A stretch of DNA of 39,059 bases from a virus, in the UHGV virus genome UHGV-0140603, one strand, 5' to 3'. The notes below the pieces were generated by a model. It was not told the DNA's origin. It saw nothing but the letters and a program-made list of their open reading frames with translations, and searched no databases. The translations under genes were made by a program, and so were the position numbers. Below are positions 3,811 to 35,355 of the stretch, piece by piece (the stretch's first letter is position 1; each line of letters starts with the position of its first letter).

Positions 3811-3990
3811 AAAAGTCACCATTTTTATCAATCAAACACAAATTCAATTCATGAATTCACCGCCTCAATTAAACCATATTTGGTTTGCTCTTGCCTAGTG
3901 TCATTATTATTTATATAGTGACATACCAACTTTCAAATTATAATTTATATATTTTAGGATCAAACCCAATACATTTTAAAAGGTGTAACA

Positions 3991-4830
3991 ATGGAATCTA
4001 ATGCACTAAAAAAAGCACGACTATTTATAAATGACATAAAATATTGTGTTGAAAACTTTAATATCGATTCAACTTTATATACCGCTTTCAAGCCAAGTGA
4101 TATTGGTGTTAAAGGAGATGAAAGCAATACAATATATGTTGCTGACGGTAAGCTTCCGGAAAAACTGATAATTGCTTTTGGAGAAAAGGCAAAAGACAGT
4201 AAAATATTTATTGGAAAAAATGTAAAATGCAGGGGATCGAGAATTGTAATAACTCACGGTGAAAGCCTTTGTTACATCGGAAATAACTCACAACTAAATA
4301 ATGTAACTATGCATATATGGTGCAAATGGGATTTTGTAGTGGTTGGAGAAGGTGTATCAGTTACCTCAACAAGTAATTGGACTACTGGAATAAACCCTGG
4401 CAATCCTTGTAACGGCATTATTATTGGTGATCACTGCCTTATGAGCCAAGAAATATCTATTAGACCTGCAGATGGACACCAAATTATCGAACTCACCACG
4501 CGAAAAGTAGTCAACGCTGCAACATCACCTATTATAATCGAACCATATTGCTGGATCGGACAGCGCACAGCAATACTAAAAAATGTAAGAATTGGTGCAT
4601 GCTCCATCGTTTCACTTGGTGCTGTAGTTACAAAATCATGTAAAAAATTCAGTGCGCTAAGTGGCGTACCAGCCAAAGCAAGATGCATTGAAGGAAAAAT
4701 GTGGCTAAGAAACAATGGGGAAGAAGCCAAGAGAATAATGCTTATGTATGAAAAAAGATTTGCAGGCACAGCAGCACAGCAGCACAGCAGCACAGCAGCA
4801 CAGCAGCACAGCAGCACAGCAGCACAGTGA
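3991..4830 (+). CDS. Hexapeptide-repeat (left-handed beta-helix) acetyltransferase, candidate O-antigen/polysaccharide acetylase
   Basis: Hexapeptide-like repeats (IGDHCLMSQEISI, IGQRTAILKNVRIGACSIVSLGAVV); AT-rich; opposite strand to the late operon; own AT-rich upstream region with SD aaaaggtg. Confidence 0.65.
   Translation: MESNALKKARLFINDIKYCVENFNIDSTLYTAFKPSDIGVKGDESNTIYVADGKLPEKLIIAFGEKAKDSKIFIGKNVKCRGSRIVITHGESLCYIGNNSQLNNVTMHIWCKWDFVVVGEGVSVTSTSNWTTGINPGNPCNGIIIGDHCLMSQEISIRPADGHQIIELTTRKVVNAATSPIIIEPYCWIGQRTAILKNVRIGACSIVSLGAVVTKSCKKFSALSGVPAKARCIEGKMWLRNNGEEAKRIMLMYEKRFAGTAAQQHSSTAAQQHSSTAAQ
4767..4827 (+). repeat. Octanucleotide tandem repeat (cacagcag) ~7.6 copies at the 3' end of the acetyltransferase gene
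   Basis: Seven perfect 8-bp units 4767-4822 plus partial unit; encodes (AAQQHSST)n tail; stop TGA follows at 4828. Confidence 0.9.
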
Positions 4831-4843
4831 TATAATTATAATA

Positions 4844-4864
4844 ATGGCCGTAATGCGCGGCCAT
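4844..4864. terminator. Bidirectional terminator between convergent acetyltransferase and tailspike genes
   Basis: 7-bp stem atggccg/cggccat with 7-nt loop, flanked by A/T runs on both sides. Confidence 0.5.
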
Positions 4865-4885
4865 TACATATTATTTATTATAGCA

Positions 4886-7800
4886 TTAACTTATTAGATC
4901 CGCTATTTTCTTTTCTTGATATGCCATCCTTATTATTTCAAATTCATCCATACGCATCATGTAAATAGATCTTGTCAATACCAAATTTCCATGTTTATCT
5001 TCTTTAATTTCATCTGCACCTTCTATTAATTTAATAATCCCAAATTCATTAACTGGAATTGGACAAGACTCAATATCAATAGGATAAAAATCACCAGATC
5101 CGTTTTCTCTTACCAAAACACTGGTTTCTTCATACGTAATAAGACCATACTTCTTCCAATCAAGACCAGCTTTTGTAATTGCATCCTTAACTTGCTGCGC
5201 TACAACTCCAAAATGATATCTGGCATGTTCACTTCCTTTTCGTAATATTTCATCCTTCATCTTCCACATTTGAAATTTTACACTACCCACGGCTTCAATA
5301 AGTTCAGTCGGTATATCCGAGAATTCATCTTTGTAATTAACATCTGAAACAACAGTGACAGCATTCTTGCTATATATGTTATTCCAGTATGCTGTCGTTG
5401 TACCATTATTAACTGTTCCTATCTGCCCTGTGGGAGCAAAATAAGGATTATCATTAACTGGATTAGCTATCTCGACAAGAACTTGAGTACCGCCAAAGCT
5501 CCCGCCAGGGAACATACGAAACCTGTTTGGTAAGCGATAGTCATTAGAACCATAAGCATTCCAGCCAGCCCCATTTTCTACAGTACCACGACACCTAAAT
5601 TCAACAACTTCTTGTATCTGCGGTGTTACATCATATCCACCACGTATAGACCAGTACTTATTATTGTCAGATTCTCTGCGGGAATCATGAACACGAAAAG
5701 CACCATTACTAGCATACTGAATGGCTTTTTTATATTCTGAAGTATTTTCTGAATACCCCCCCAATATCCAGTTCTCTCCTAATTTAAAGGAAACATCAAA
5801 AGCAGAACTTATAGAAGAAAGTGGTGAGTTATTAACACGAGTTGTCAAGGCGGAATTCAATGGTAGTTCATTAGCAACCCCACGCGATTGTGAAATAAGA
5901 AATATCTGTTTTCCTCGTTTCGAATACACTCCATCGCTGTACTTTTTATCATTCGAGTATTCCCCACCACTAACTTTATTTGTTATCGCCCACATTCTAA
6001 ATCCATCGGGATCATCAGGAGCAATACCAGAAGCAGTAGAAAAAGCGGAATAATTCTTTCCTTTGTAAGTTATAATAGATGCTCCAGAATCCCAATTATC
6101 CATAGTTAGAATAATAAGGTCTCCTTCATACATATCTATACCTTCAGGTTCAAATGAATGGGGGGTCCCATACTTTGGATTATCCATAAGATTTTTGTAT
6201 CCATAAAGAGAACGAGCCCCCTCAAATGAAAATTCAGCAAGAATATTACCAGAATAATCAAACTTCTGAATAATATGCAACATGAACGGATGTGTATATC
6301 CCCTTAATATATAGATGTACTTACCATCACTGGCAACATCTTGAATAACATGAGTATCAGTTCCGCGCTGCGGATGTGGAATCCTGAAATAATACAATGG
6401 TCTTGCGTCCAAACTATTGTCAAGGGATTCTACGTGTATCCTGCTGTAAACAAATACATACCAGGCATCATCATCTGCTGTGCTATCAGTTGCAACAAGA
6501 ACAACATACCTTCCATCTGAAGATACACACGGGGTTGCTGAATTATAATTCTGATAAGGATGACCAGAACCAGAATATCCAAAAAGCTGATAAGTAATCA
6601 CATCAGATTCAGATGTGCTGCTCCCTTTCCAAATTAATTTTGAATAACCTTTTCCTCCATCATTTCCTCGATATGTAGGCTGGGTAACCATTTGGGTATA
6701 AATAAAAAGGTCATCATCAATAACTATCGTAGATATTCCCTGATGGTTATTTAATATTGGTGCAGTGTAAGTAGTATTTTGCACTACTGAACCATCATCA
6801 GAAAACGAGTATTCAACCAGCCTGCGCTTCTCTAAAGCAGCTGCTGTTCCTGTACCCCCCCCTGGACCATTCGCCGTAAATCGTACACCAATATTATTTT
6901 CAGCAGCCCCTATAGTTGTAAAATCAGTTGAACCTATACTTACTATTTCATATTCAATTCCGGTTATGAAGTCACCAGCTGATGTTACTTTAGAGTTGAA
7001 GTTTCCACTACCTTCAGCACTGCCAACAACCGTTTGTAAAATAAATAATTTTTTACCATTATAATTCGCATAAGCACACCCTTGACTTGTAGCCTCACCA
7101 TTTGGAAAAACTTGGGACTCACCAAAACCCATAAATGCTTCCATTAAATGGCGTTGCACCAATGTATTACTGATATTATTACGAAGAGAAAGTAGATGAC
7201 CAGTTTTGGAAAGAATCATCCCTTCCCCTGTCATTTTGCTTACATCTACTTTCAACGTATCAACAAGATATACTCCAGGTGGAACATAAGCATTTTCAGG
7301 AGCCAGAATAAAAGAATTCGTATCATCAGTTATACCATCTCCAACAGCAGCATAATCTTTCACACTTACTGTATCACGCATCTTATCCTGGAACGTTCTG
7401 TATACAGCTCCAGCACCATACTGGATAAACCATCCGAAACCACCGACAACACCAGCAATTGCAGCATCCACATACTTACGCATTGAACGATTATTTACAG
7501 CGTCCTGCTCAAGTGATGGATCTGCAAGGTTAGAAATTTTGTTTTGCTTTGCATCGTAATATTTTGCAAGCAGCGAGGGCTTCATCAATGCACGTCTGAA
7601 CCACCCAAAACATCGCTGGATCAGCATCGTCAGGTAGTCGAATGCATCCTCATGAACTTCGGGGAAAAATTTTCCCTGATTGCGAAGATCAGTCTCCTGC
7701 ACCACATCAAGCACACGCTCTATCGTAATTCGCCAGCCAGCAGCAAGCGGCGACGGAAGAACCACTTCACCGCCACTATAAGTGCCCGCTCCAGTTACCT

Positions 7801-7960
7801 TATAACCGGTATCAAGCACCAATTCTGTTACGTTCCCGTTCAGATCAGACACCTGAACAACCAGGTCGGATTTTTTGAAAATACGGAAGGTATACGGAAA
7901 TGATGTCGTAACTCCGTTACCGGTGTATTCGTTGTGGTCAACTTCGGTTGAGACCGTCAT
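4886..7960 (-). CDS. Tailspike protein with T7 gp17-like N-terminal particle-binding domain
   Basis: N-terminus YTGNGVTTSFPYTFRIF resembles the tail-fibre adaptor domain; 1024 aa; C-terminal two thirds AT-rich. Confidence 0.8.
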   Translation of the reverse strand: MTVSTEVDHNEYTGNGVTTSFPYTFRIFKKSDLVVQVSDLNGNVTELVLDTGYKVTGAGTYSGGEVVLPSPLAAGWRITIERVLDVVQETDLRNQGKFFPEVHEDAFDYLTMLIQRCFGWFRRALMKPSLLAKYYDAKQNKISNLADPSLEQDAVNNRSMRKYVDAAIAGVVGGFGWFIQYGAGAVYRTFQDKMRDTVSVKDYAAVGDGITDDTNSFILAPENAYVPPGVYLVDTLKVDVSKMTGEGMILSKTGHLLSLRNNISNTLVQRHLMEAFMGFGESQVFPNGEATSQGCAYANYNGKKLFILQTVVGSAEGSGNFNSKVTSAGDFITGIEYEIVSIGSTDFTTIGAAENNIGVRFTANGPGGGTGTAAALEKRRLVEYSFSDDGSVVQNTTYTAPILNNHQGISTIVIDDDLFIYTQMVTQPTYRGNDGGKGYSKLIWKGSSTSESDVITYQLFGYSGSGHPYQNYNSATPCVSSDGRYVVLVATDSTADDDAWYVFVYSRIHVESLDNSLDARPLYYFRIPHPQRGTDTHVIQDVASDGKYIYILRGYTHPFMLHIIQKFDYSGNILAEFSFEGARSLYGYKNLMDNPKYGTPHSFEPEGIDMYEGDLIILTMDNWDSGASIITYKGKNYSAFSTASGIAPDDPDGFRMWAITNKVSGGEYSNDKKYSDGVYSKRGKQIFLISQSRGVANELPLNSALTTRVNNSPLSSISSAFDVSFKLGENWILGGYSENTSEYKKAIQYASNGAFRVHDSRRESDNNKYWSIRGGYDVTPQIQEVVEFRCRGTVENGAGWNAYGSNDYRLPNRFRMFPGGSFGGTQVLVEIANPVNDNPYFAPTGQIGTVNNGTTTAYWNNIYSKNAVTVVSDVNYKDEFSDIPTELIEAVGSVKFQMWKMKDEILRKGSEHARYHFGVVAQQVKDAITKAGLDWKKYGLITYEETSVLVRENGSGDFYPIDIESCPIPVNEFGIIKLIEGADEIKEDKHGNLVLTRSIYMMRMDEFEIIRMAYQEKKIADLIS

Positions 7961-8064
7961 GTTAAATCTCCAGATAGTCGCAGCACCCGTTGCGCCGCAT
8001 ATCTGGTCATTCTATTACCTAAAAAACCACATATGGATAGACAACCCATAAATACGAACAGATA

Positions 8065-8079
8065 TTACCTTTCAGGTGA
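8065..8079. promoter_or_regulatory. Near-palindrome TTACC-TTTCA-GGTGA in the tailspike divergent promoter region
   Basis: One mismatch from the TTACC-N5-GGTAA consensus; followed by ttgcaa and tataaat promoter-like hexamers. Confidence 0.4.
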
Positions 8080-8155
8080 TTTGCAAAACGTGCTGGATAG
8101 CAAACAAATTATTTGTTACTGTATAAATATACAGTTATCGTATGGAGAAGATAAG

Positions 8156-8413
8156 ATGCAGCAGTATCACTATCCACTGGAAGACGGATTTACCGAAAGG
8201 ATTCACACGCCGGGAGGCGTCAGATCACTGGTGGAGGGATCGCACTTGATGAAATTACTCCGGGATCTCGATAAGGATGGATTTAATGTCGATGGCCCAC
8301 TTGCCGAACTGACTGCACTGATTAACTACGTCACCAGCTCACAGATGTCTATGCAGGATCTGCAAACACATCTCGACTATTGTGCCGAACAATTACGAAA
8401 ACAAACCACATAA
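8156..8413 (+). CDS. Hypothetical 85-aa protein, opposite-strand insert inside the late operon
   Basis: ATG at 8156 with SD ggagaag; promoter-like ttgcaa/tataaat upstream; terminator hairpin downstream; no recognisable family. Confidence 0.45.
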   Translation: MQQYHYPLEDGFTERIHTPGGVRSLVEGSHLMKLLRDLDKDGFNVDGPLAELTALINYVTSSQMSMQDLQTHLDYCAEQLRKQTT

Positions 8414-8436
8414 AGAAAAGGCCGCAAGAGCGGCCT
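8411..8436 (-). terminator. Rho-independent terminator ending the upstream late transcription unit
   Basis: Stem aggccgc/gcggcct with 4-nt loop; U-run on the minus-strand side. Confidence 0.55.
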
Positions 8437-8455
8437 GTGACATGTCACGCTCACG

Positions 8456-8596
8456 CTATGACAAGCCTATGTACCCTGCTACACCAGATAATATCAAAAC
8501 AACTGCAACAGCAAATTCACCATCGTCAATGATACATTTACGGTTCATAACGCCAAGTGCAACAAGCGCAAACACAACAAGAATAAAAGCAATCAT
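8456..8596 (-). CDS. Small (46 aa) two-helix membrane protein
   Basis: ATG 10 nt after the stop of the upstream gene, SD aaggatgag; MIAFILVVFALVALGVMNRKCIIDDGEFAVAVVLILSGVAGYIGLS; below the ORF-track size cutoff. Confidence 0.4.
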   Translation of the reverse strand: MIAFILVVFALVALGVMNRKCIIDDGEFAVAVVLILSGVAGYIGLS

Positions 8597-8605
8597 TTCT
8601 CATCC

Positions 8606-11080
8606 TTATTGCGGAGTGACATCCTGTGGTCGCCACCAGTATGTTTGGTTAAATTCTTTCTTCGAACGTTGCTCCATTTTACGCAAATAGCCTGGTGAAA
8701 AATACTCCTGCATCTGGTTAAAAATCATGTGATCGAGAGCCGCCTTCAAGTACCAGAGATTCGCACCTGGCATCAGACCTTTCCCCAGCTTCACCAGATC
8801 ACCACCAGTCTGCTCATTCTTTCCTTCCACAGCATTAAGCGGAATGCCCTGAGCTATCTTAACGACATCATCAACAAGGCCTGCCACCGGACCAAGCATT
8901 GACGCCAGGGCACCGCTGCCATATCTGGTGTGATCTGAAAGAAGAAAATCACCATACAGGCCAAGCCCACCACCTTTCAGTAGCGCACCAAGCCAGAATT
9001 TTGCGGCATCATCACCGGTCATATCACGCGGATTCCTGCCTGATGCCATATCGTTTAACTGCTGCGAAAGCGCGCCAAGGATGGTTGTACTGGCGATAAA
9101 CGTCGCAATGTATGCCGCACGCCCACCGGCAGACGGCATTCCCATGGCGCGTGACCAGTGACGCATGACAACGGAGATCGGAAACGACTTAAACAGGAAT
9201 ACGCTACGGGTTAGTTCTCCCTTCCATGTCCCACGCTGGATGCCTGAACCGGTAACCATCTGCTCACGCGCACCAGGAGTGATGACCGCCATATCCACTT
9301 CTTCGGTCACCGCCCCGAGCAACTTGCGCATCGCTTCAAACTTCACGCGCTCTGGTGCTCCGAGATGCTCTACAGCAGCATCAGGAATACGCATGATGCT
9401 TTCCGGCGTCAGCATCGTGTTGTTGCCTTTCCCCCAGTCCTCCTGTTGCGCCAGTTTCCACACGCTCCAGTCTGTGTCAGTAATCCCTTTGCTTTTCAGG
9501 ATACGAAAATCAGAATCATCGAGGCTACGAAGGTCTGGTGTCCGTGACACTACTTCTCCCAGGCTTCCCATCATGGTTACGCCATAGGCGCGCTTGTGCG
9601 CATCTGACCATGCTGTAAGCCCACTGGCACGCATTACCGCCGTTGCCGCCCAACGAGACACAGACGGCCCCATATTATCCATCGCCCAGCGGTTAACGCT
9701 ACCAAGTAGAGATTCCATCGCCAGACCAGTGCGGCGCGCCCGCGCAAGCTCAGTACGGTTCGTTGGGTCCATAGCTTCAAGCTGGTTACGGAATAACTGG
9801 TTCATTGGAAGGTTGGTCACCTTCGCAGACAGATACATGGTTCCAAGATCAGAGAACGATGACAGCAACGCGGAGCCGAGTCGGCTGGCAACCAGCCAGT
9901 TGCGGATATTGTCAGACCAGCGTGCGATGTGCGGATTCGCTACAGGCTGTGTCTTTCCGGAAATAAAGTTGTACAGATTCTCTGTGTTGTTCCCCAGGCG
10001 CTCGACGCTACCGGTTTTACTCGGGTTAGCTGTTGCCGTTTCTGCCTTCACCTGATCAAGAAGGGAACGGAAAACATGATCGGGGTTTGGACCATATGTT
10101 TCCACCAGAGCAATATCTTTACTAATCCCTTCCAAGTGGCCGACCATGATTTCCCATAGAGAGCGATCGCCATAAAGTTGCTGATATTGCAGATAGGAAT
10201 CTGCATCTTTGAAATGTATCTGTCGTGATGCATTACCACGGTTAGCACGTGCGCCGGAAATTCGCATTCCGGTATCAGTAAGTTTATTCAGCCCACCAGT
10301 AGCGATCGTGTTATAAGCCTCTCCAAGAAATGCAGACAACTCGGCATCGTTCATCAGTTGTCCATCGGCTCGGATATAATATTTGCGATCCAGCTTACCT
10401 ATAACATCGCTAACCCACTTATCCTTTGATACCGCCCCAACCTTTTCCATAGAATGATGTTGAGGGATCCCCCAGTTTTCGAGATAGCCAATGTCCCCAC
10501 CAGCATCATTAAACCGGCGGCGCAGTAGATCTGTCACTTCTCTCCACGCCTTAGCACCTTTTCTTGCTTTAGCATTGCCAGTATTTTGCCCTCGCATTTC
10601 ATATACCAGGTCACGCACGCCCGCTTCATCTTCAAACAGGCCAAAAAAGCGAGGATCAACTGCTTCAAATGCCTCCTGCAATTGACTCAATGCATAATCA
10701 CGAGTGGCTTTTGTTCTGGACTCAACAGAGAGGAAATTCGATTTACCGTCTGCATTAAAAGCAATAGTACGGTTAAGAGCGCCAAGTTTCCCATCAGCCC
10801 CTTGATAGCTATTGATAAATTTATCCAATCTCTGACGTGCGGCTATAGTGAGGGCCACACGACGTTTCTTTAATGCCGCTTCTCGCTGTAATTCTTCAGA
10901 TGCCAATTGTGCTGCACGATATAGCCGCTCTGATTCGGAAAGTTGTCTCCACGACATCGGGTCATCACGAGCAATGGAGCGCATATTTCGATAAATGCGG
11001 TCTTCAATGTTCTGTATTTCTCGCGCCGTTAACGTGCGCTGCGCCGCCTGCTGGACCGCTTGTATACATTCCTGTCTCAT
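8606..11080 (-). CDS. Internal virion/ejection protein (T7 gp16-like position)
   Basis: 824 aa, position between core proteins and tailspike in a T7-like gene order. Confidence 0.55.
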   Translation of the reverse strand: MRQECIQAVQQAAQRTLTAREIQNIEDRIYRNMRSIARDDPMSWRQLSESERLYRAAQLASEELQREAALKKRRVALTIAARQRLDKFINSYQGADGKLGALNRTIAFNADGKSNFLSVESRTKATRDYALSQLQEAFEAVDPRFFGLFEDEAGVRDLVYEMRGQNTGNAKARKGAKAWREVTDLLRRRFNDAGGDIGYLENWGIPQHHSMEKVGAVSKDKWVSDVIGKLDRKYYIRADGQLMNDAELSAFLGEAYNTIATGGLNKLTDTGMRISGARANRGNASRQIHFKDADSYLQYQQLYGDRSLWEIMVGHLEGISKDIALVETYGPNPDHVFRSLLDQVKAETATANPSKTGSVERLGNNTENLYNFISGKTQPVANPHIARWSDNIRNWLVASRLGSALLSSFSDLGTMYLSAKVTNLPMNQLFRNQLEAMDPTNRTELARARRTGLAMESLLGSVNRWAMDNMGPSVSRWAATAVMRASGLTAWSDAHKRAYGVTMMGSLGEVVSRTPDLRSLDDSDFRILKSKGITDTDWSVWKLAQQEDWGKGNNTMLTPESIMRIPDAAVEHLGAPERVKFEAMRKLLGAVTEEVDMAVITPGAREQMVTGSGIQRGTWKGELTRSVFLFKSFPISVVMRHWSRAMGMPSAGGRAAYIATFIASTTILGALSQQLNDMASGRNPRDMTGDDAAKFWLGALLKGGGLGLYGDFLLSDHTRYGSGALASMLGPVAGLVDDVVKIAQGIPLNAVEGKNEQTGGDLVKLGKGLMPGANLWYLKAALDHMIFNQMQEYFSPGYLRKMEQRSKKEFNQTYWWRPQDVTPQ

Positions 11081-25334: not shown

Positions 25335-26267
25335 ATGCTTGACTTCATCCGTGACATTTACGCTTCTTTCCGCCAGACATCTCTTGAAAGAGTGAAGAGT
25401 CCATTTCTTGGACCTTTCGTATTTTCGTGGTTGGGGTTTAACTGGCAGATGCTGGCCGTTATCTTTTTTAGCACAAAAAGTATCGAAGAAAGACTTAGTC
25501 TAATAAATAAAAGTTTCGATGTCGGTGATTATATATTTGCCCCTATATGTACTACTGCTTTGATAGTAATAATCCTCCCACGATTTAATAAATTTATCAC
25601 TTGGGTACAGGATAAACCTAACTCTGACACTGTAGAAATGAGTCTGGCATCTAAAATAAAAATCGCAGAATTACAACAGTCCTTAGCTGAAAATGAAGCA
25701 AGAAAAAAACTTGCCGATAAAAAAGAAGAAAGATTTATTGAGGATGGAATATATTCTCTAAAAGAAGAGTTCAAAAAAACAAAAAATGACCTAGAAAAAA
25801 GAAATGACGATGCAAAAATATTGCTAGAAGAAATACGACGTTTAGAAGGCCAACTAGCAAAGGCAGAGGGTCAATTAAATGTAGAACAAGAGTCAAAATC
25901 TCAGATACAAAAAGAGTTGATTATCGAAAGAGATAACAACCGCACATTAGGCGAACAAATAATAAAATCAACATCAGAATCAAATAAATTCAAAGCAGAA
26001 TTATCTTTATCTAAAGAGTCATATGAAAACACATTCAAAGCATACAATGAATTAAAGAAACGGAATGAAATCACTGAAAACTCAATTAGGCACAATCACA
26101 CTAGATACCCATCATTAATAAAACCAGTAAGTGTTAACGGAGCATATACACTAGAATTTAATAAAGGTGTAGAACTATATTTTGACGAAATCAACAAAAC
26201 ATTAACAACCCAAAAAAAGAGAGACTATAAAACCAATAAGGTTAATGCTCGCAATGATGAATTATAG
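25335..26267 (+). CDS. AT-rich hypothetical protein: hydrophobic N-terminal segments plus long coiled-coil; candidate accessory/defence gene
   Basis: 310 aa; opposite strand to flanking terminase and portal; low GC; several AGA codons; no family recognised. Confidence 0.6.
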   Translation: MLDFIRDIYASFRQTSLERVKSPFLGPFVFSWLGFNWQMLAVIFFSTKSIEERLSLINKSFDVGDYIFAPICTTALIVIILPRFNKFITWVQDKPNSDTVEMSLASKIKIAELQQSLAENEARKKLADKKEERFIEDGIYSLKEEFKKTKNDLEKRNDDAKILLEEIRRLEGQLAKAEGQLNVEQESKSQIQKELIIERDNNRTLGEQIIKSTSESNKFKAELSLSKESYENTFKAYNELKKRNEITENSIRHNHTRYPSLIKPVSVNGAYTLEFNKGVELYFDEINKTLTTQKKRDYKTNKVNARNDEL

Positions 26268-27748: not shown

Positions 27749-28338
27749 TGATTACCATCCTGGCGTTCTTTGAGTCGCTTCCTGGCCGCTGCTATGCGAT
27801 CTGCAATTGTCACATTCACATTAACATCCAGGCGTTCTTTAAACGCGTTAACATCAACATGCTTACCAATCAGCTCAAGGTTCTTCACCTTGTCAGGCCA
27901 TTTAATTTTTTTGAGGATTGTCTCTATCGAATCCTCGTTCATGTTCATGATGGTCGATGACAGATCAAAGCCGCTAAGCGTAGTGCGCCATATTTTCGGC
28001 CACTCGCGGATTGGCTTAAGGCTCCCATCGTCGTTGAGGATGTCGATCACGTCCATCTGGTCGATCTCCACCAGGCGCATAAGAACGTAATCGGCACTGA
28101 CGCGCATTCGTTTGTTGCGTTCCTCCATCAGCTCGGCAATCCGTTTCTGAATGCGTTCATCGCGCATCATAACACTGGCTTTAACTGCCGCTGTATTTGG
28201 AGAGAATCCTGCGTTAATCGCTGCCTGAGTCTGGTTTTCAGGCGTTTTGATGTACGACTGACAATAAGCCTCCTGCATTGCTGTTAGTGGCTTAAATTGC
28301 GTTGATTTGCGTTTATAGGTTTTAGGTTCAGCTGGCAT
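27745..28338 (-). CDS. Terminase small subunit
   Basis: ATG at 28338 with SD aaggtgg; track ORF extends upstream to 28419; immediately precedes large terminase. Confidence 0.65.
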   Translation of the reverse strand: MPAEPKTYKRKSTQFKPLTAMQEAYCQSYIKTPENQTQAAINAGFSPNTAAVKASVMMRDERIQKRIAELMEERNKRMRVSADYVLMRLVEIDQMDVIDILNDDGSLKPIREWPKIWRTTLSGFDLSSTIMNMNEDSIETILKKIKWPDKVKNLELIGKHVDVNAFKERLDVNVNVTIADRIAAARKRLKERQDGNQ

Positions 28339-28358
28339 AATAACCACCTTGGTAATAG

Positions 28359-28373
28359 TTACCGTTTTGGTAA
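28359..28373. promoter_or_regulatory. Perfect palindrome TTACC-GTTTT-GGTAA upstream of the terminase small subunit
   Basis: Exact inverted repeat between an upstream terminator and the terminase RBS. Confidence 0.5.
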
Positions 28374-28383
28374 TAGTATCATG

Positions 28384-28410: not shown

Positions 28411-28459
28411 AGTATTCAAAACCCATCAAATTCATCATGCATAATCCATTCGTGACATG

Positions 28460-28801
28460 TCACAATATTAATTTCGTTTCATGCCAGCCTTTAGTCACCC
28501 AGCATTGCGAGTCACCATTACACGGGCATGAATTTACAGGAACTCTCTCGCCGCACTTACCGCAACGTTTTCTGCTGATCGATTTTATACGCCCGCGCAC
28601 GCGTGCATCATCCTGGCGGATCAGTAACGCTATATACTCACCAAATTCGTAAGGCGCACGCCCGGGGCGACGCGTGGCACAGTTACGCTCCAGCATTTCA
28701 ATTTCCTGAGCATCAAGCACAATTTCCAGCTTACGCACACCAGATGCAGCTTGTCTGGCTCTCTGAGCGGCTTTGCGCTCTGCTGCTGATTTAGCCATCA
28801 A
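28460..28801 (-). CDS. Basic protein with C-terminal Cys cluster, candidate late-gene regulator
   Basis: 113 aa; Arg/Lys-rich N-terminus; CGKCGERVPVNSCPC; last gene before the terminator and late operon. Confidence 0.35.
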   Translation of the reverse strand: MMAKSAAERKAAQRARQAASGVRKLEIVLDAQEIEMLERNCATRRPGRAPYEFGEYIALLIRQDDARVRGRIKSISRKRCGKCGERVPVNSCPCNGDSQCWVTKGWHETKLIL

Positions 28802-34770: not shown

Positions 34771-35355
34771 ATGAAAAGTATCCAGGACGTCCGCAGGCAA
34801 AATCTCAACGACTTGATCGACCGTGAATTCAATGGTGTTCAGACGCGGATGGCTGAAAAACTTGGAACTCAGGCAAATCTGGTAAACCGCTGGGCTCTTG
34901 GCAAGAAGGTTATCGGCGACCAGGTTGCGCGAAAAATTGAAGCTGCCGCCAATAAACCACGTAACTGGCTTGATATCGATCGCTCGCTTTCTCAGGAGGG
35001 TTTTCAGCCTGTCGGACCAAGCGACATTGGTCAGCTGGCGGCTCACAACCTGGAACGCTGGATGAGCGAAAGCCGCGACCTTTCAACACAGGGAAAACTT
35101 CACCGCGCATCCGGCGTCGCCCAAGTGACAATCAGCCGCCTGTTAAACAATGAGGTCAGCGTTTCCATTTCCACCCTGGAGAATGTTGCATCTGCATTCG
35201 GGCGTCACGGATATGAACTACTGATTCACCCGCACGACCCTGCAACTATCAACTATGACCGCTCGCGCTACGCATTGTTACCTGAAACCGAGAAAGCAAA
35301 GATCGAAAGTTACATTGAATTTGTCATCAACCAGAACGAAAAAAACAAACAATAA
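34771..35355 (+). CDS. Repressor-like protein with two HTH regions and no peptidase S24 domain
   Basis: N-terminal XRE-type HTH, second HTH-like segment ~120-150; no Ala-Gly/Ser-Lys autocleavage motifs. Confidence 0.6.
   Translation: MKSIQDVRRQNLNDLIDREFNGVQTRMAEKLGTQANLVNRWALGKKVIGDQVARKIEAAANKPRNWLDIDRSLSQEGFQPVGPSDIGQLAAHNLERWMSESRDLSTQGKLHRASGVAQVTISRLLNNEVSVSISTLENVASAFGRHGYELLIHPHDPATINYDRSRYALLPETEKAKIESYIEFVINQNEKNKQ

What the first reader, a model, noticed from the sequence alone, without database searches (positions are those of the whole stretch)
7961..8600. Second opposite-strand insert between internal virion proteins and tailspike, plus an unannotated 46-aa membrane protein
An 85-aa plus-strand ORF (8156-8413) has its own promoter-like elements, a strong SD and a downstream hairpin, and a near-palindrome at 8065 lies in the shared divergent region with the tailspike. 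On the minus strand a 46-aa two-helix protein (8456-8596, below the ORF-track cutoff) starts 10 nt after the ejection-protein stop with SD aaggatgag and is followed by a terminator. Neither protein has a recognisable family; small membrane proteins at this position often act in exclusion or as virion or lysis accessories.
Basis: seen in the sequence. Interest (0 to 1): 0.55.

Follow-up and report, generated by a model that had tools for sequence, protein, structure and literature searches.

The report
SOS-controlled antirepressor plus small membrane gene
The 85-residue gene is the already characterised LexA-controlled antirepressor (Ant) that switches epsilon15/phiV10-like prophages into lytic growth, and the 46-residue gene is a real, conserved two-helix membrane protein of unknown function that relatives already annotate, so the finding is largely ordinary.

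Summary
The window is an epsilon15/phiV10-like (Uetakevirus) podophage genome.

**The 85-aa ORF (8156-8413, +)**
- It is the ortholog of Salmonella phage SPC32H Ant (PDB 5D50 chain E, E=1e-47, 88% identical).
- A near-consensus LexA box (8117-8136, 18/20) sits just upstream. It is conserved in 10 of 10 relatives. Its homologous base is one of the two differences between SPC32H and SPC32N in the 3.2-kb locus compared.
- The "near-palindrome at 8065" (8064-8080) is one of 10 or more ATTACC-N5-GGTAAT sites annotated as repressor sites in epsilon15.
- A non-cleavable-type Rep homolog lies at 34771-35355.

**The 46-aa ORF (8456-8596, -)**
- It is a genuine gene: PHROG 7892, dN/dS about 0.12-0.17, helical hairpin with pLDDT 92.6.
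- It always directly follows the last ejection-protein gene and precedes a terminator.
- phiV10, SPC32H and RefSeq already annotate it. Its function is unknown.

**New side observations**
- The slot holding the 46-aa gene is a polymorphic cassette of unrelated small membrane proteins between near-identical flanks.
- The cassette is bounded by an invariant, unexplained palindrome, GTGACATGTCAC.

Interest is low overall.

The parts
4886..7960 (-). Tailspike gene (context). Its conserved N-terminal head-binding part is shared with epsilon15/phiV10-type tailspikes, and it ends in a C-terminal Peptidase_S74 chaperone domain.
8009..8019 (.). Invariant block ATTCTATTACC in the divergent region. It holds one operator half-site (TATTACC). 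On the minus strand it reads TAGAAT, a possible tailspike -10 element (inferred, not shown).
   Evidence: alignment A1
8064..8080 (.). Rep-operator-like palindrome ATTACCTTTCAGGTGAT. It is homologous to the site annotated 'repressor; lysogeny' in epsilon15.
8113..8141 (+). Putative ant promoter: TTGTTA, 17 nt, TATCGT (8/12 to consensus). Its spacer is the LexA box.
   Evidence: sequence; conserved in A1; below the threshold of the scan
8117..8136 (.). LexA (SOS) box TACTGTATAAATATACAGTT, 18/20 to consensus.
   Evidence: 0 expected by chance; conserved in 10/10 relatives; the homologous base C8132 is the SPC32H-to-SPC32N substitution
8156..8413 (+). ant, an 85-aa antirepressor, ortholog of SPC32H Ant (SD GGAG at 8144-8147).
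   Evidence: PDB 5D50_E E=1.3e-47; tblastn 88% to SPC32H ant; dN/dS 0.05-0.07
8419..8436 (-). Intrinsic terminator hairpin (7-bp stem, 6 GC pairs) followed by TTTCTTTATG on the minus strand. It ends the structural/ejection-protein operon, and its T-tail overlaps the ant stop codon.
   Evidence: stems conserved in A2
8437..8448 (.). Invariant perfect palindrome GTGACATGTCAC between the 46-aa stop codon and the terminator. It is the right-hand boundary of the membrane-protein cassette. Its function is unexplained.
8456..8596 (-). 46-aa two-helix membrane protein gene (phiV10 gp21 / SPC32H_019 family, PHROG 7892). SD AAGGA at 8603-8607.
8606..11080 (-). 824-aa internal virion (ejection) protein, PHROG 684. 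It is a distant homolog of epsilon15 gp17, which the literature places in the T7 IVP-D family.
   Evidence: PMC4819975
34771..35355 (+). rep, a 194-aa repressor homologous to SPC32H Rep (42% identity). It has an HTH_3 domain and no Peptidase_S24 autocleavage domain. It is the presumed target of Ant.

Best explanation
Window 7961-8600 holds two things: the SOS-responsive induction switch of an epsilon15/phiV10-like (Uetakevirus) temperate podophage, and the last small gene of the virion/ejection-protein operon.

The switch:
- In the lysogen, host LexA sits on the SOS box (8117-8136) that forms the spacer of the ant promoter and keeps ant off.
- DNA damage leads to LexA self-cleavage, and the 85-aa Ant is made.
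- Ant binds the phage repressor Rep (34771-35355), which is not of the self-cleaving type. In the SPC32H ortholog, an Ant tetramer binds the C-terminal tetramerisation domain of Rep and splits the DNA-binding Rep tetramer into dimers.
- Rep then leaves its ATTACC-N5-GGTAAT operators across the genome and lytic genes switch on.
- The palindrome at 8064-8080 is one such operator, placed between the divergent ant and tailspike genes.

Shown here: the homology, the box, the operators, the presence of rep, the synteny and the selection. Inferred from the ortholog: LexA binding, Ant-Rep binding and the induction phenotype.

The 46-aa gene:
- It encodes a helical-hairpin inner-membrane protein.
- It starts 9 nt after the IVP-D-like ejection-protein gene and is closed off by the minus-strand terminator, so it is probably co-transcribed and translated with that gene.
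- It is one allele of a swappable cassette of small membrane proteins.
- My best guess, at about 0.3, is a DNA-entry or superinfection-exclusion-type accessory acting at the inner membrane. This step is inference only.
For: Ant identity:
- PDB 5D50_E 'Anti-repressor protein', E=1.3e-47 over residues 2-85.
- The SPC32H record annotates the syntenic gene as ant.

LexA box:
- Unique 18/20 match, 0 expected by chance.
- Conserved in all 10 aligned relatives.
- SPC32H and SPC32N differ at two bases in the 3.2-kb locus. One turns ACAG into AAAG in the homologous box.

Rep:
- 5D50_A homolog, E=4e-42.
- HTH_3 only, no S24 peptidase domain.

Operators:
- 13 sites against 1.1 expected.
- Syntenic sites in phiV10, SPC32H and epsilon15.
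- epsilon15 annotates the homologous site as 'repressor; lysogeny'.

Mechanism in the ortholog, from the literature:
- PMC7380047.
- PMC9638917.
- PMC9986798.

Selection:
- ant dN/dS is 0.05-0.07.
- Variable sites by codon position are 37/23/73.

The 46-aa gene:
- PHROG 7892, E=7e-33.
- 48 homolog clusters in Enterobacteriaceae.
- Constant context of 600 aa, 824 aa, 46 aa, then convergent ant.
- dN/dS 0.12-0.17 and codon-position pattern 13/5/22.
- Helical hairpin, pLDDT 92.6.
- Minus-strand terminator.
- No sigma-70-like promoter upstream of it.
Against: - No experiment exists on this phage. Rep is only 42% identical to SPC32H Rep, and 49% in the last 37 residues. Ant-Rep pairing is therefore inferred.
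- The ant -10/-35 hexamers are weak, 8/12, and were not called by the scan.
- A Rep operator only about 40 bp upstream of the ant promoter raises the unresolved question of whether Rep also affects ant or only the tailspike promoter.
- In the E. coli relative ZX5, the published 'anti-repressor' is a different protein, a Bro-N protein from the adjacent cargo slot (PMC9782041). That slot is empty in this window.
- For the 46-aa protein there is no functional evidence at all. There are no Pfam, NCBIfam or PADLOC hits and no similarity to P22 SieA.
- The lack of its own promoter argues against expression in the lysogen, which classical exclusion proteins need.
Confidence: 0.85

Rival explanations
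1. The 85-aa ORF is a dead C-terminal remnant of a larger Bro-N-type antirepressor gene, not a working gene.
For: Ant aligns over about 75 residues (38-42% identity, E=2e-19 and 8e-16) with the C-terminal domain of Bro-N proteins encoded next door in Tyrion and TL-2011b. It also matches positions 177-225 of PHROG 1760 'anti-repressor'.
Against: The ORF has its own conserved SD, start codon and LexA box in 10/10 relatives. Its dN/dS is 0.05-0.07. The 86-aa ortholog was crystallised in complex with Rep (5D50). The upstream region carries stops in relatives, so there is no trace of an N-terminal domain.
Confidence: 0.03
2. The 46-aa protein is a structural or assembly accessory of the ejection apparatus. 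Examples would be a membrane partner or immunity factor for the pore-forming IVP-D-like 824-aa protein, made late and possibly packaged.
For: There are only 9 nt between the stop of the 824-aa gene and its ATG, with an SD inside that gap. The gene always sits directly after this gene. It has no promoter of its own. In epsilon15 the analogous gp18 overlaps gp17. A GxxxG-like SGxAG motif is invariant in helix 2.
Against: The partner can be swapped. Tyrion (824-aa protein 95% identical) and an E. coli O26 prophage (98.2% identical) carry unrelated membrane proteins in the slot. BcepC6B has none. A core assembly factor would be expected to co-evolve with its partner.
Confidence: 0.25
3. The 46-aa protein is a lysis-timing accessory (holin- or antiholin-like).
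For: It is a small two-TM protein made with late genes. The alternative 98-aa allele has a sub-threshold match to a holin family (PF16079, E=0.027, below the cut-off).
Against: The lysis cassette (3-TM protein, holin, endolysin, Rz/Rz1) lies elsewhere, beyond the tailspike and the O-antigen-modification gene(s). The protein has no charged C-terminal tail and no holin family hit.
Confidence: 0.1
4. The 46-aa ORF is not translated, and its conservation reflects a nucleic-acid element at the operon end.
For: The ORF is very short and sits beside an invariant DNA palindrome and a terminator.
Against: Variable sites fall 13/5/22 by codon position, and there are 10-11 synonymous against 5-6 non-synonymous differences to the Salmonella copies. 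The start codon and SD are invariant. The ORF is intact in 48 clusters. There is no Rfam match.
Confidence: 0.04

Closest known systems
Ant-Rep-LexA antirepression switch of Salmonella podophage SPC32H (Kim & Ryu 2013, J Virol 87:11775; Kim et al. 2016, PNAS 113:E2480; PDB 5D50/5D4Z)
   Same: Ant is orthologous (88% identity over 84 aa). The gene sits in the same place and orientation, between the small membrane gene and the tailspike. A LexA box lies at the same spot in the promoter. The repressor is homologous and lacks a cleavage domain. The operator consensus ATTACC-N5-GGTAAT is the same.
   Different: The host is E. coli-type rather than Salmonella. Rep is only 42% identical. Ant is one residue shorter. 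Nothing has been tested experimentally in this phage, and databases label the E. coli copies 'hypothetical protein'.
LexA-controlled small antirepressors of Gifsy-1/Gifsy-3 (GfoA, GfhA) and Tum of coliphage 186
   Same: The logic is the same. A non-cleavable repressor is inactivated by a small antirepressor whose gene lies outside the immunity region under direct LexA control (PMC3121763; PMC7380047).
   Different: No sequence relationship turned up in the family searches. Those hosts are siphophages or myophages. No direct comparison with the Tum or Gfo sequences was run.
P22 immI region and sieA, between gene 16 and tailspike gene 9
   Same: The map position is strikingly parallel: last ejection protein, then a membrane protein, then an antirepressor module, then the tailspike, then O-antigen modification genes.
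   Different: P22 Ant is 300 aa, unrelated in sequence, and controlled by Mnt, Arc and sar rather than LexA. SieA is 164 aa, unrelated, lies on the opposite strand and has its own promoter.
Bro-N domain 'antirepressors' (PHROG 1760), such as Tyrion gp20, TL-2011b gp46 and ZX5 ORF4
   Same: Their C-terminal ~75 residues are homologous to the whole of Ant. They sit in the same locus. ZX5 ORF4 reduces lysogeny when overexpressed (PMC9782041).
   Different: The window's protein lacks the Bro-N domain altogether, and the window carries no such cargo gene at this locus.
Small inner-membrane DNA-entry blockers (T4 Imm, HK97 gp15)
   Same: They are small helical membrane proteins encoded among or next to virion genes. 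From my own knowledge, they block genome entry of related phages.
   Different: There is no sequence similarity (no family hits) and no evidence of lysogen expression. This is analogy only.

Membership tests
SPC32H-type Ant antirepressor | Sequence homology to SPC32H Ant over the full length, size about 86 aa | tested here: met
   phmmer against PDB 5D50_E, E=1.3e-47, residues 2-85 aligned to 3-86. tblastn gives 88% identity to the SPC32H ant gene. PHROG 450, E=1e-47.
SPC32H-type Ant antirepressor | LexA box overlapping the ant promoter | tested here: met
   TACTGTATAAATATACAGTT at 8117-8136, 18/20 to consensus, 0 expected by chance. It aligns column for column with the SPC32H box, whose C-to-A change distinguishes SPC32N. 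Actual LexA binding was not tested.
SPC32H-type Ant antirepressor | Cognate Rep-type repressor without an autocleavage domain in the same genome | tested here: met
   Window 34771-35355 against 5D50_A, E=4e-42. Pfam finds HTH_3 only and no Peptidase_S24.
SPC32H-type Ant antirepressor | Syntenic position, divergent from the tailspike gene and convergent with the small membrane gene | tested here: met
   The same order is seen in SPC32H, epsilon15, phiV10, PAS61, 65FD, and Citrobacter, Hafnia and Salmonella prophages.
SPC32H-type Ant antirepressor | Ant physically binds Rep and dissociates its tetramer; prophage induction depends on Ant | not testable with these tools
   Known for SPC32H only (PMC9638917; PMC9986798). 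This needs biochemistry and genetics.
P22-type Ant (immI) | ~300-aa Ant homologous to P22 Ant, with Mnt/Arc/sar control | tested here: not met
   BLASTP against P22 Ant gives E=15. There is no arc/mnt-like ORF in the 195-bp upstream region.
Bro-N antirepressors (PF02498 plus PHROG 1760) | N-terminal Bro-N domain | tested here: not met
   No Pfam Bro-N hit for either the 85-aa or the 126-aa reading. Only the C-terminal domain is shared.
P22 SieA superinfection exclusion | Sequence homology to SieA; own promoter; expressed in the lysogen | tested here: not met
   BLASTP gives E=40. No promoter-like site lies upstream of the 46-aa gene. Expression was not testable.
Holins | Match to a holin family, charged C-terminus, adjacency to the endolysin gene | tested here: not met
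   No Pfam or PHROG holin hit. The C-terminus is ...GYIGLS. The lysis cassette of relatives lies beyond the tailspike and the O-antigen-modification gene(s).
phiV10 gp21 / SPC32H_019 small membrane protein family (PHROG 7892) | 46-aa two-TM protein directly after the IVP-D-like gene | tested here: met
   PHROG 7892, E=7e-33, full length. 85-96% identity to annotated homologs. AF2 helical hairpin.
Known anti-phage defence proteins (PADLOC) | Match to any PADLOC model | tested here: not met
   No hit better than E=0.14 for the 46-aa protein, for Ant, or for the alternative cassette proteins.

The most novel reading that the evidence does not exclude
The stretch between the stop codon of the last ejection-protein gene and the invariant palindrome GTGACATGTCAC may be a dedicated exchange slot. 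Uetakeviruses would swap unrelated small inner-membrane proteins through it: 46 aa; 57 plus 98 aa; 64 aa; 103 aa. These proteins would act as allele-specific blockers, or modulators, of DNA entry through the IVP-D channel.

The palindrome recurs at two or three terminator-flanked operon boundaries per genome. It may be the binding site of a still unidentified dimeric factor that controls termination or read-through at those boundaries, including read-through from the late operon, antisense across ant, into the tailspike gene.
Probability: 0.2. Interest if true: 0.5.

Novelty: new member of a known kind. Interest (0 to 1): 0.2.

Why it matters
This locus occurs in about 10% of complete E. coli genomes (531 of 5,426), including O26, O103 and O157-associated prophages. 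Both genes are labelled 'hypothetical protein' there.

Recognising the 85-aa gene as the LexA-controlled Ant has three practical consequences:
- It predicts that these prophages are induced by SOS-triggering antibiotics through antirepression rather than repressor cleavage.
- Ant is far more conserved (84-88%) than Rep (about 42%), so cross-induction between co-resident relatives is plausible, as in Gifsy phages.
- It corrects the E. coli literature, in which the neighbouring Bro-N cargo protein is treated as 'the' antirepressor.

The membrane-protein cassette and the boundary palindrome are modest new leads, not established findings.

Tried and rejected
Papers I could not read:
- The primary papers are not held in the library: Kim & Ryu 2013, Kim et al. 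2016 and Kropinski et al. 2007.
- Mechanistic statements therefore rest on secondary descriptions, on my recollection of the 2013 abstract, and on my own sequence comparison of SPC32H with SPC32N.

Family and motif searches that gave nothing useful:
- Pfam gave only a sub-threshold DUF724 hit for Ant and nothing for the 46-aa protein.
- NCBIfam and PADLOC gave nothing useful.
- Rfam found nothing in 7800-8800.

Readings I rejected:
- The 126-aa reading from ATG 8033, which PAS61 annotates, has in-frame stops in 6 of 7 relatives and would have to encode the operator and the LexA box.
- Homology of the 46-aa protein to P22 SieA and to epsilon15 gp18 (hhalign probability 0.6%).
- Homology of Ant to P22 Ant.

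Things I looked for and did not find:
- No independent promoter for the 46-aa gene appeared inside the 3' end of the 824-aa gene.
- I could not assign the operator at 8064-8080 to the ant or the tailspike core promoter by hexamer inspection. It lies about 60-80 bp from either predicted start site, so I left this open.
- A serotype-conversion role for the 46-aa protein is unlikely. It travels with the ejection-protein module across phages with different tailspikes and hosts.
- The 113-aa regulator next to the second palindrome copy matches only the generic PHROG 536 'transcriptional regulator' and has no PDB relative.
Full report
**What the window is.** Megablast of 7700-8900 hits phiV10, O157 typing phages 9 and 10, PAS61, SPC32H-like Salmonella phages and epsilon15, all of genus Uetakevirus. 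The gene order matches phiV10 and SPC32H in reverse orientation. On the minus strand it runs: three large internal virion proteins, a small membrane protein and a terminator; then a plus-strand small gene; then the minus-strand tailspike. The 824-aa protein upstream of the finding is PHROG 684. It is a distant homolog (27% identity) of epsilon15 gp17, which Hardies et al. place in the T7 IVP-D ejection-protein family (PMC4819975).

**Checking the observation.** All the features are there.
- The 85-aa ORF runs 8156-8413, with GGAG 8 nt upstream.
- The alternative 126-aa reading from 8033, as annotated in PAS61, is not conserved. Six of seven relatives have in-frame stops in that extension.
- The hairpin at 8419-8436 is followed by TTTCTTTATG on the minus strand. 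It is therefore a canonical terminator for the ejection-protein operon, and only a tail-less hairpin for the plus-strand gene.
- The palindrome is ATTACCTTTCAGGTGAT at 8064-8080.
- The 46-aa ORF (8456-8596, minus strand) begins 9 nt after the TAA of the 824-aa gene, behind AAGGA.

**The 85-aa gene is ant.**
- phmmer against all PDB chains returns a single hit, 5D50 chain E, 'Anti-repressor protein', 86 aa, E=1.3e-47, aligned end to end.
- This is Ant of Salmonella phage SPC32H. The SPC32H GenBank record annotates the syntenic gene as ant, between SPC32H_019 ('putative integral membrane protein', 46 aa) and tsp.
- Immediately upstream lies TACTGTATAAATATACAGTT (8117-8136). It matches the E. coli LexA consensus at 18 of 20 positions. 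It is the only match with up to 3 mismatches in the window, with none found in 100 shuffles.
- An alignment of the tailspike-ant intergenic region from ten phages of Escherichia, Salmonella, Enterobacter and Klebsiella shows the box as a conserved island. The CTGT and ACAG arms are intact in nine. One has a single arm mismatch.
- SPC32H and its clear-plaque sibling SPC32N differ at two bases in the 3.2-kb locus I compared. One change turns ACAG into AAAG in exactly this box, homologous to window C8132. This fits my recollection of Kim & Ryu 2013. The paper itself was not readable here; its citation appears.
- ant is under strong purifying selection, with dN/dS 0.05-0.07 against the Salmonella and Enterobacter copies. 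Variable sites by codon position are 37/23/73.

**The partner and the operators.**
- Window 34771-35355 encodes a 194-aa protein homologous to SPC32H Rep: 5D50_A, E=4e-42, 42% identity.
- It has an HTH_3 domain and no S24 peptidase domain. It is therefore not a lambda-CI/LexA-type self-cleaving repressor.
ATTACC-N5-GGTAAT with up to 2 mismatches occurs 13 times against 1.1 expected.
- The sites cluster around rep, upstream of terS, and in other intergenic regions. Syntenic copies occur in phiV10, SPC32H and epsilon15.
- The epsilon15 RefSeq record annotates exactly these palindromes as 'protein_bind: repressor; lysogeny', including the one homologous to 8064-8080. That annotation is a prediction, not an experiment.
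- Secondary literature describes the ortholog's mechanism. LexA cleavage allows Ant synthesis, and Ant inactivates the repressor by protein-protein contact (PMC7380047). An Ant tetramer binds two Rep dimers and breaks the DNA-binding Rep tetramer (PMC9638917). It acts through Rep's C-terminal tetramerisation domain (PMC9986798).
- The N-terminal 75 residues and the last 37 residues of Rep are the best conserved parts between this phage and SPC32H, at 53% and 49% identity. The regions in between are 29-32% identical.

**Most likely mechanism.** LexA represses ant in the lysogen. SOS induction releases Ant. Ant strips Rep from its operators, and lytic promoters fire. The sequence-level anatomy is shown here. 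The binding events and the phenotype are inferred from the 88%-identical ortholog.

One point stays open. The operator at 8064-8080 sits midway between the divergent ant and tailspike genes, and I could not tell which promoter it governs. The late operon ends at a terminator before ant. The tailspike therefore needs either its own Rep-controlled promoter or read-through. The invariant blocks at 8009-8019 and about 8030-8038 are candidate -10 and -35 elements on the minus strand. This is inference.

**Relationship to other antirepressors.**
- Ant has no Pfam family, and UniRef names only some copies 'Anti-repressor protein'.
- It is homologous over about 75 residues to the C-terminal domain of Bro-N proteins. 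In Tyrion and TL-2011b these lie between ant and the terminator (38-42% identity, E=2e-19 and 8e-16).
- phiV10 gp23 is a truncated version.
- The published E. coli Uetakevirus 'anti-repressor' (ZX5 ORF4) is of that Bro-N type (PMC9782041). The small Ant in E. coli phages and in 531 of 5,426 complete E. coli genomes remains 'hypothetical protein'.
- This window has no cargo gene. ant and the 46-aa gene are separated by 42 nt.

**The 46-aa gene.** It is real.
- It matches PHROG 7892 over its full length.
- It has 48 homolog clusters, all from Enterobacteriaceae and all at least 76% identical.
- The start codon and SD are invariant.
- The codon-position pattern is 13/5/22, and dN/dS is 0.12-0.17 against the Salmonella copies.
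- AlphaFold gives a confident helical hairpin, helices 2-19 and 25-45, pLDDT 92.6.
- The loop NRK-II-DGEF and an SGxAG motif in helix 2 are (nearly) invariant.
- In Salmonella, Citrobacter and Hafnia prophages the context is always 600 aa, 824 aa, 46 aa, then convergent ant.
- I found no promoter of its own. It is therefore probably made with the late virion genes.
- It is annotated in phiV10 (gp21, 'two predicted transmembrane helices'), in SPC32H and in RefSeq E. coli genomes. It has no assigned function and no hit in Pfam, NCBIfam or PADLOC.

**A polymorphic cassette.**
- The slot varies among close relatives. epsilon15 and BUCT554 carry an unrelated 64-aa membrane protein (PHROG 29212). 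Tyrion carries a 103-aa one, although its 824-aa protein is 95% identical to the window's. BUCT711 carries a 98-aa multi-TM protein (PHROG 3075).
- An E. coli O26 prophage has an 824-aa protein 98.2% identical to the window's and an ant region 97% identical. In place of the 46-aa gene it has an unannotated ~57-aa two-TM ORF plus the 98-aa protein.
- Among complete E. coli genomes, 53 carry the 46-aa allele and 216 carry the 57-plus-98-aa cassette.
- BcepC6B has no such gene, and its tail fibre follows directly. Pseudomonas phage Shamal has an unannotated hydrophobic ORF in the corresponding gap.
- Free exchange between nearly identical flanks argues for an accessory, host- or competitor-facing role rather than a core assembly role.
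- P22 offers a map analogy, with sieA and the immI antirepressor region between gene 16 and gene 9.
- On these grounds I rank a DNA-entry or exclusion-type function first, at about 0.3. An ejection-apparatus accessory comes second (0.25), lysis timing third (0.1), and the rest is unknown. None of this is tested.

**An unexplained motif.**
- The right-hand boundary of the cassette is a perfect 12-bp palindrome, GTGACATGTCAC (8437-8448). It is wedged between the stop codon and the terminator.
- It is invariant in all 17 relative loci examined, whichever membrane gene precedes it.
- Megablast homology between this window and most E. coli prophages breaks within 1-4 bases past the palindrome, at window 8449-8452.
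- A second copy lies at 28452-28463 (0.09 copies expected). It follows the stop of the last early-right gene and precedes another terminator, which in turn precedes two Rep operators and terS.
- epsilon15 and SPC32H have three copies, each next to a terminator at an operon boundary. The order is always stop codon, palindrome, hairpin, T-run.
- The motif is not annotated in any record and has no Rfam match. It could be a protein-binding site that modulates termination, or a module-junction sequence. I could not decide between these.

**Verdict.** The main element is a new, unstudied E. coli-type member of a known and structurally characterised system. The membrane gene is real, already catalogued and functionally unknown. 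Interest is low (0.2). The cassette polymorphism and the boundary palindrome are the only parts that go beyond what is known.

Noticed in passing
window 8437-8448 and 28452-28463; L023 (epsilon15) 2142, 19517, 39612; L024 (SPC32H) 2145, 19634, 38629: An invariant perfect palindrome, GTGACATGTCAC, sits next to intrinsic terminators at operon boundaries, always in the order stop codon, palindrome, hairpin, T-run. It has 2-3 copies per genome against 0.09 expected, and no record annotates it.
   Followed up: partly
window 8449-8605; L025 (E. coli O26 RM10386) 4485-4976: The slot after the last ejection-protein gene is a swappable cassette of unrelated small membrane proteins: 46 aa; an unannotated ~57 aa plus 98 aa; 64 aa; 103 aa. 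The flanks are 97-98% identical. In complete E. coli genomes, 53 carry the 46-aa allele and 216 carry the 57-plus-98-aa cassette.
   Followed up: partly
L006 (Tyrion) 2073-2777; L009 (TL-2011b) 3906-4601; L001 (phiV10) 2390-2974: Bro-N 'antirepressor' cargo genes inserted between ant and the terminator carry a C-terminal domain 38-42% identical to the entire small Ant. phiV10 gp23 is a truncated copy. The E. coli literature treats this Bro-N protein, not the small Ant, as the antirepressor.
   Followed up: partly
window 28337-28374 (minus strand): Two tandem Rep-operator-like sites (ATTACCAAAACGGTAAC and ATTACCAAGGTGGTTAT) lie directly before an ATG at about 28337 that reads MPAEPK. The terminase small subunit probably starts there rather than at the TTG at 28419 listed by the ORF finder. 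If so, Rep would sit on the start of the late operon.
   Followed up: no
window, L011, L023, L024 genome-wide: Reps that are only about 42% identical (window/phiV10 type against SPC32H/epsilon15 type) are accompanied by the same operator consensus, ATTACC-N5-GGTAAT, at syntenic positions. Ant stays 84-88% identical. This suggests shared DNA specificity and possible cross-induction between these phages.
   Followed up: no
L013, L016, L017 (Hafnia and Citrobacter prophages) 4188-4340: An extra 50-aa ORF lies downstream of ant on the same strand, between ant and the terminator/46-aa gene. It is absent from the window.
   Followed up: no
window 25335-26267 (+): A 310-aa opposite-strand ORF (PHROG 13369, unknown function) lies beside the terminase genes, where phiV10 and epsilon15 carry a different small gene (gp03/gp50). 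The terL-side copy of the palindrome is missing here.
   Followed up: no
window 8103-8117: The palindrome AACAAAT-T-ATTTGTT overlaps the putative ant -35 element. It is present only in the E. coli-type sequences, so it is probably not a conserved element.
   Followed up: no
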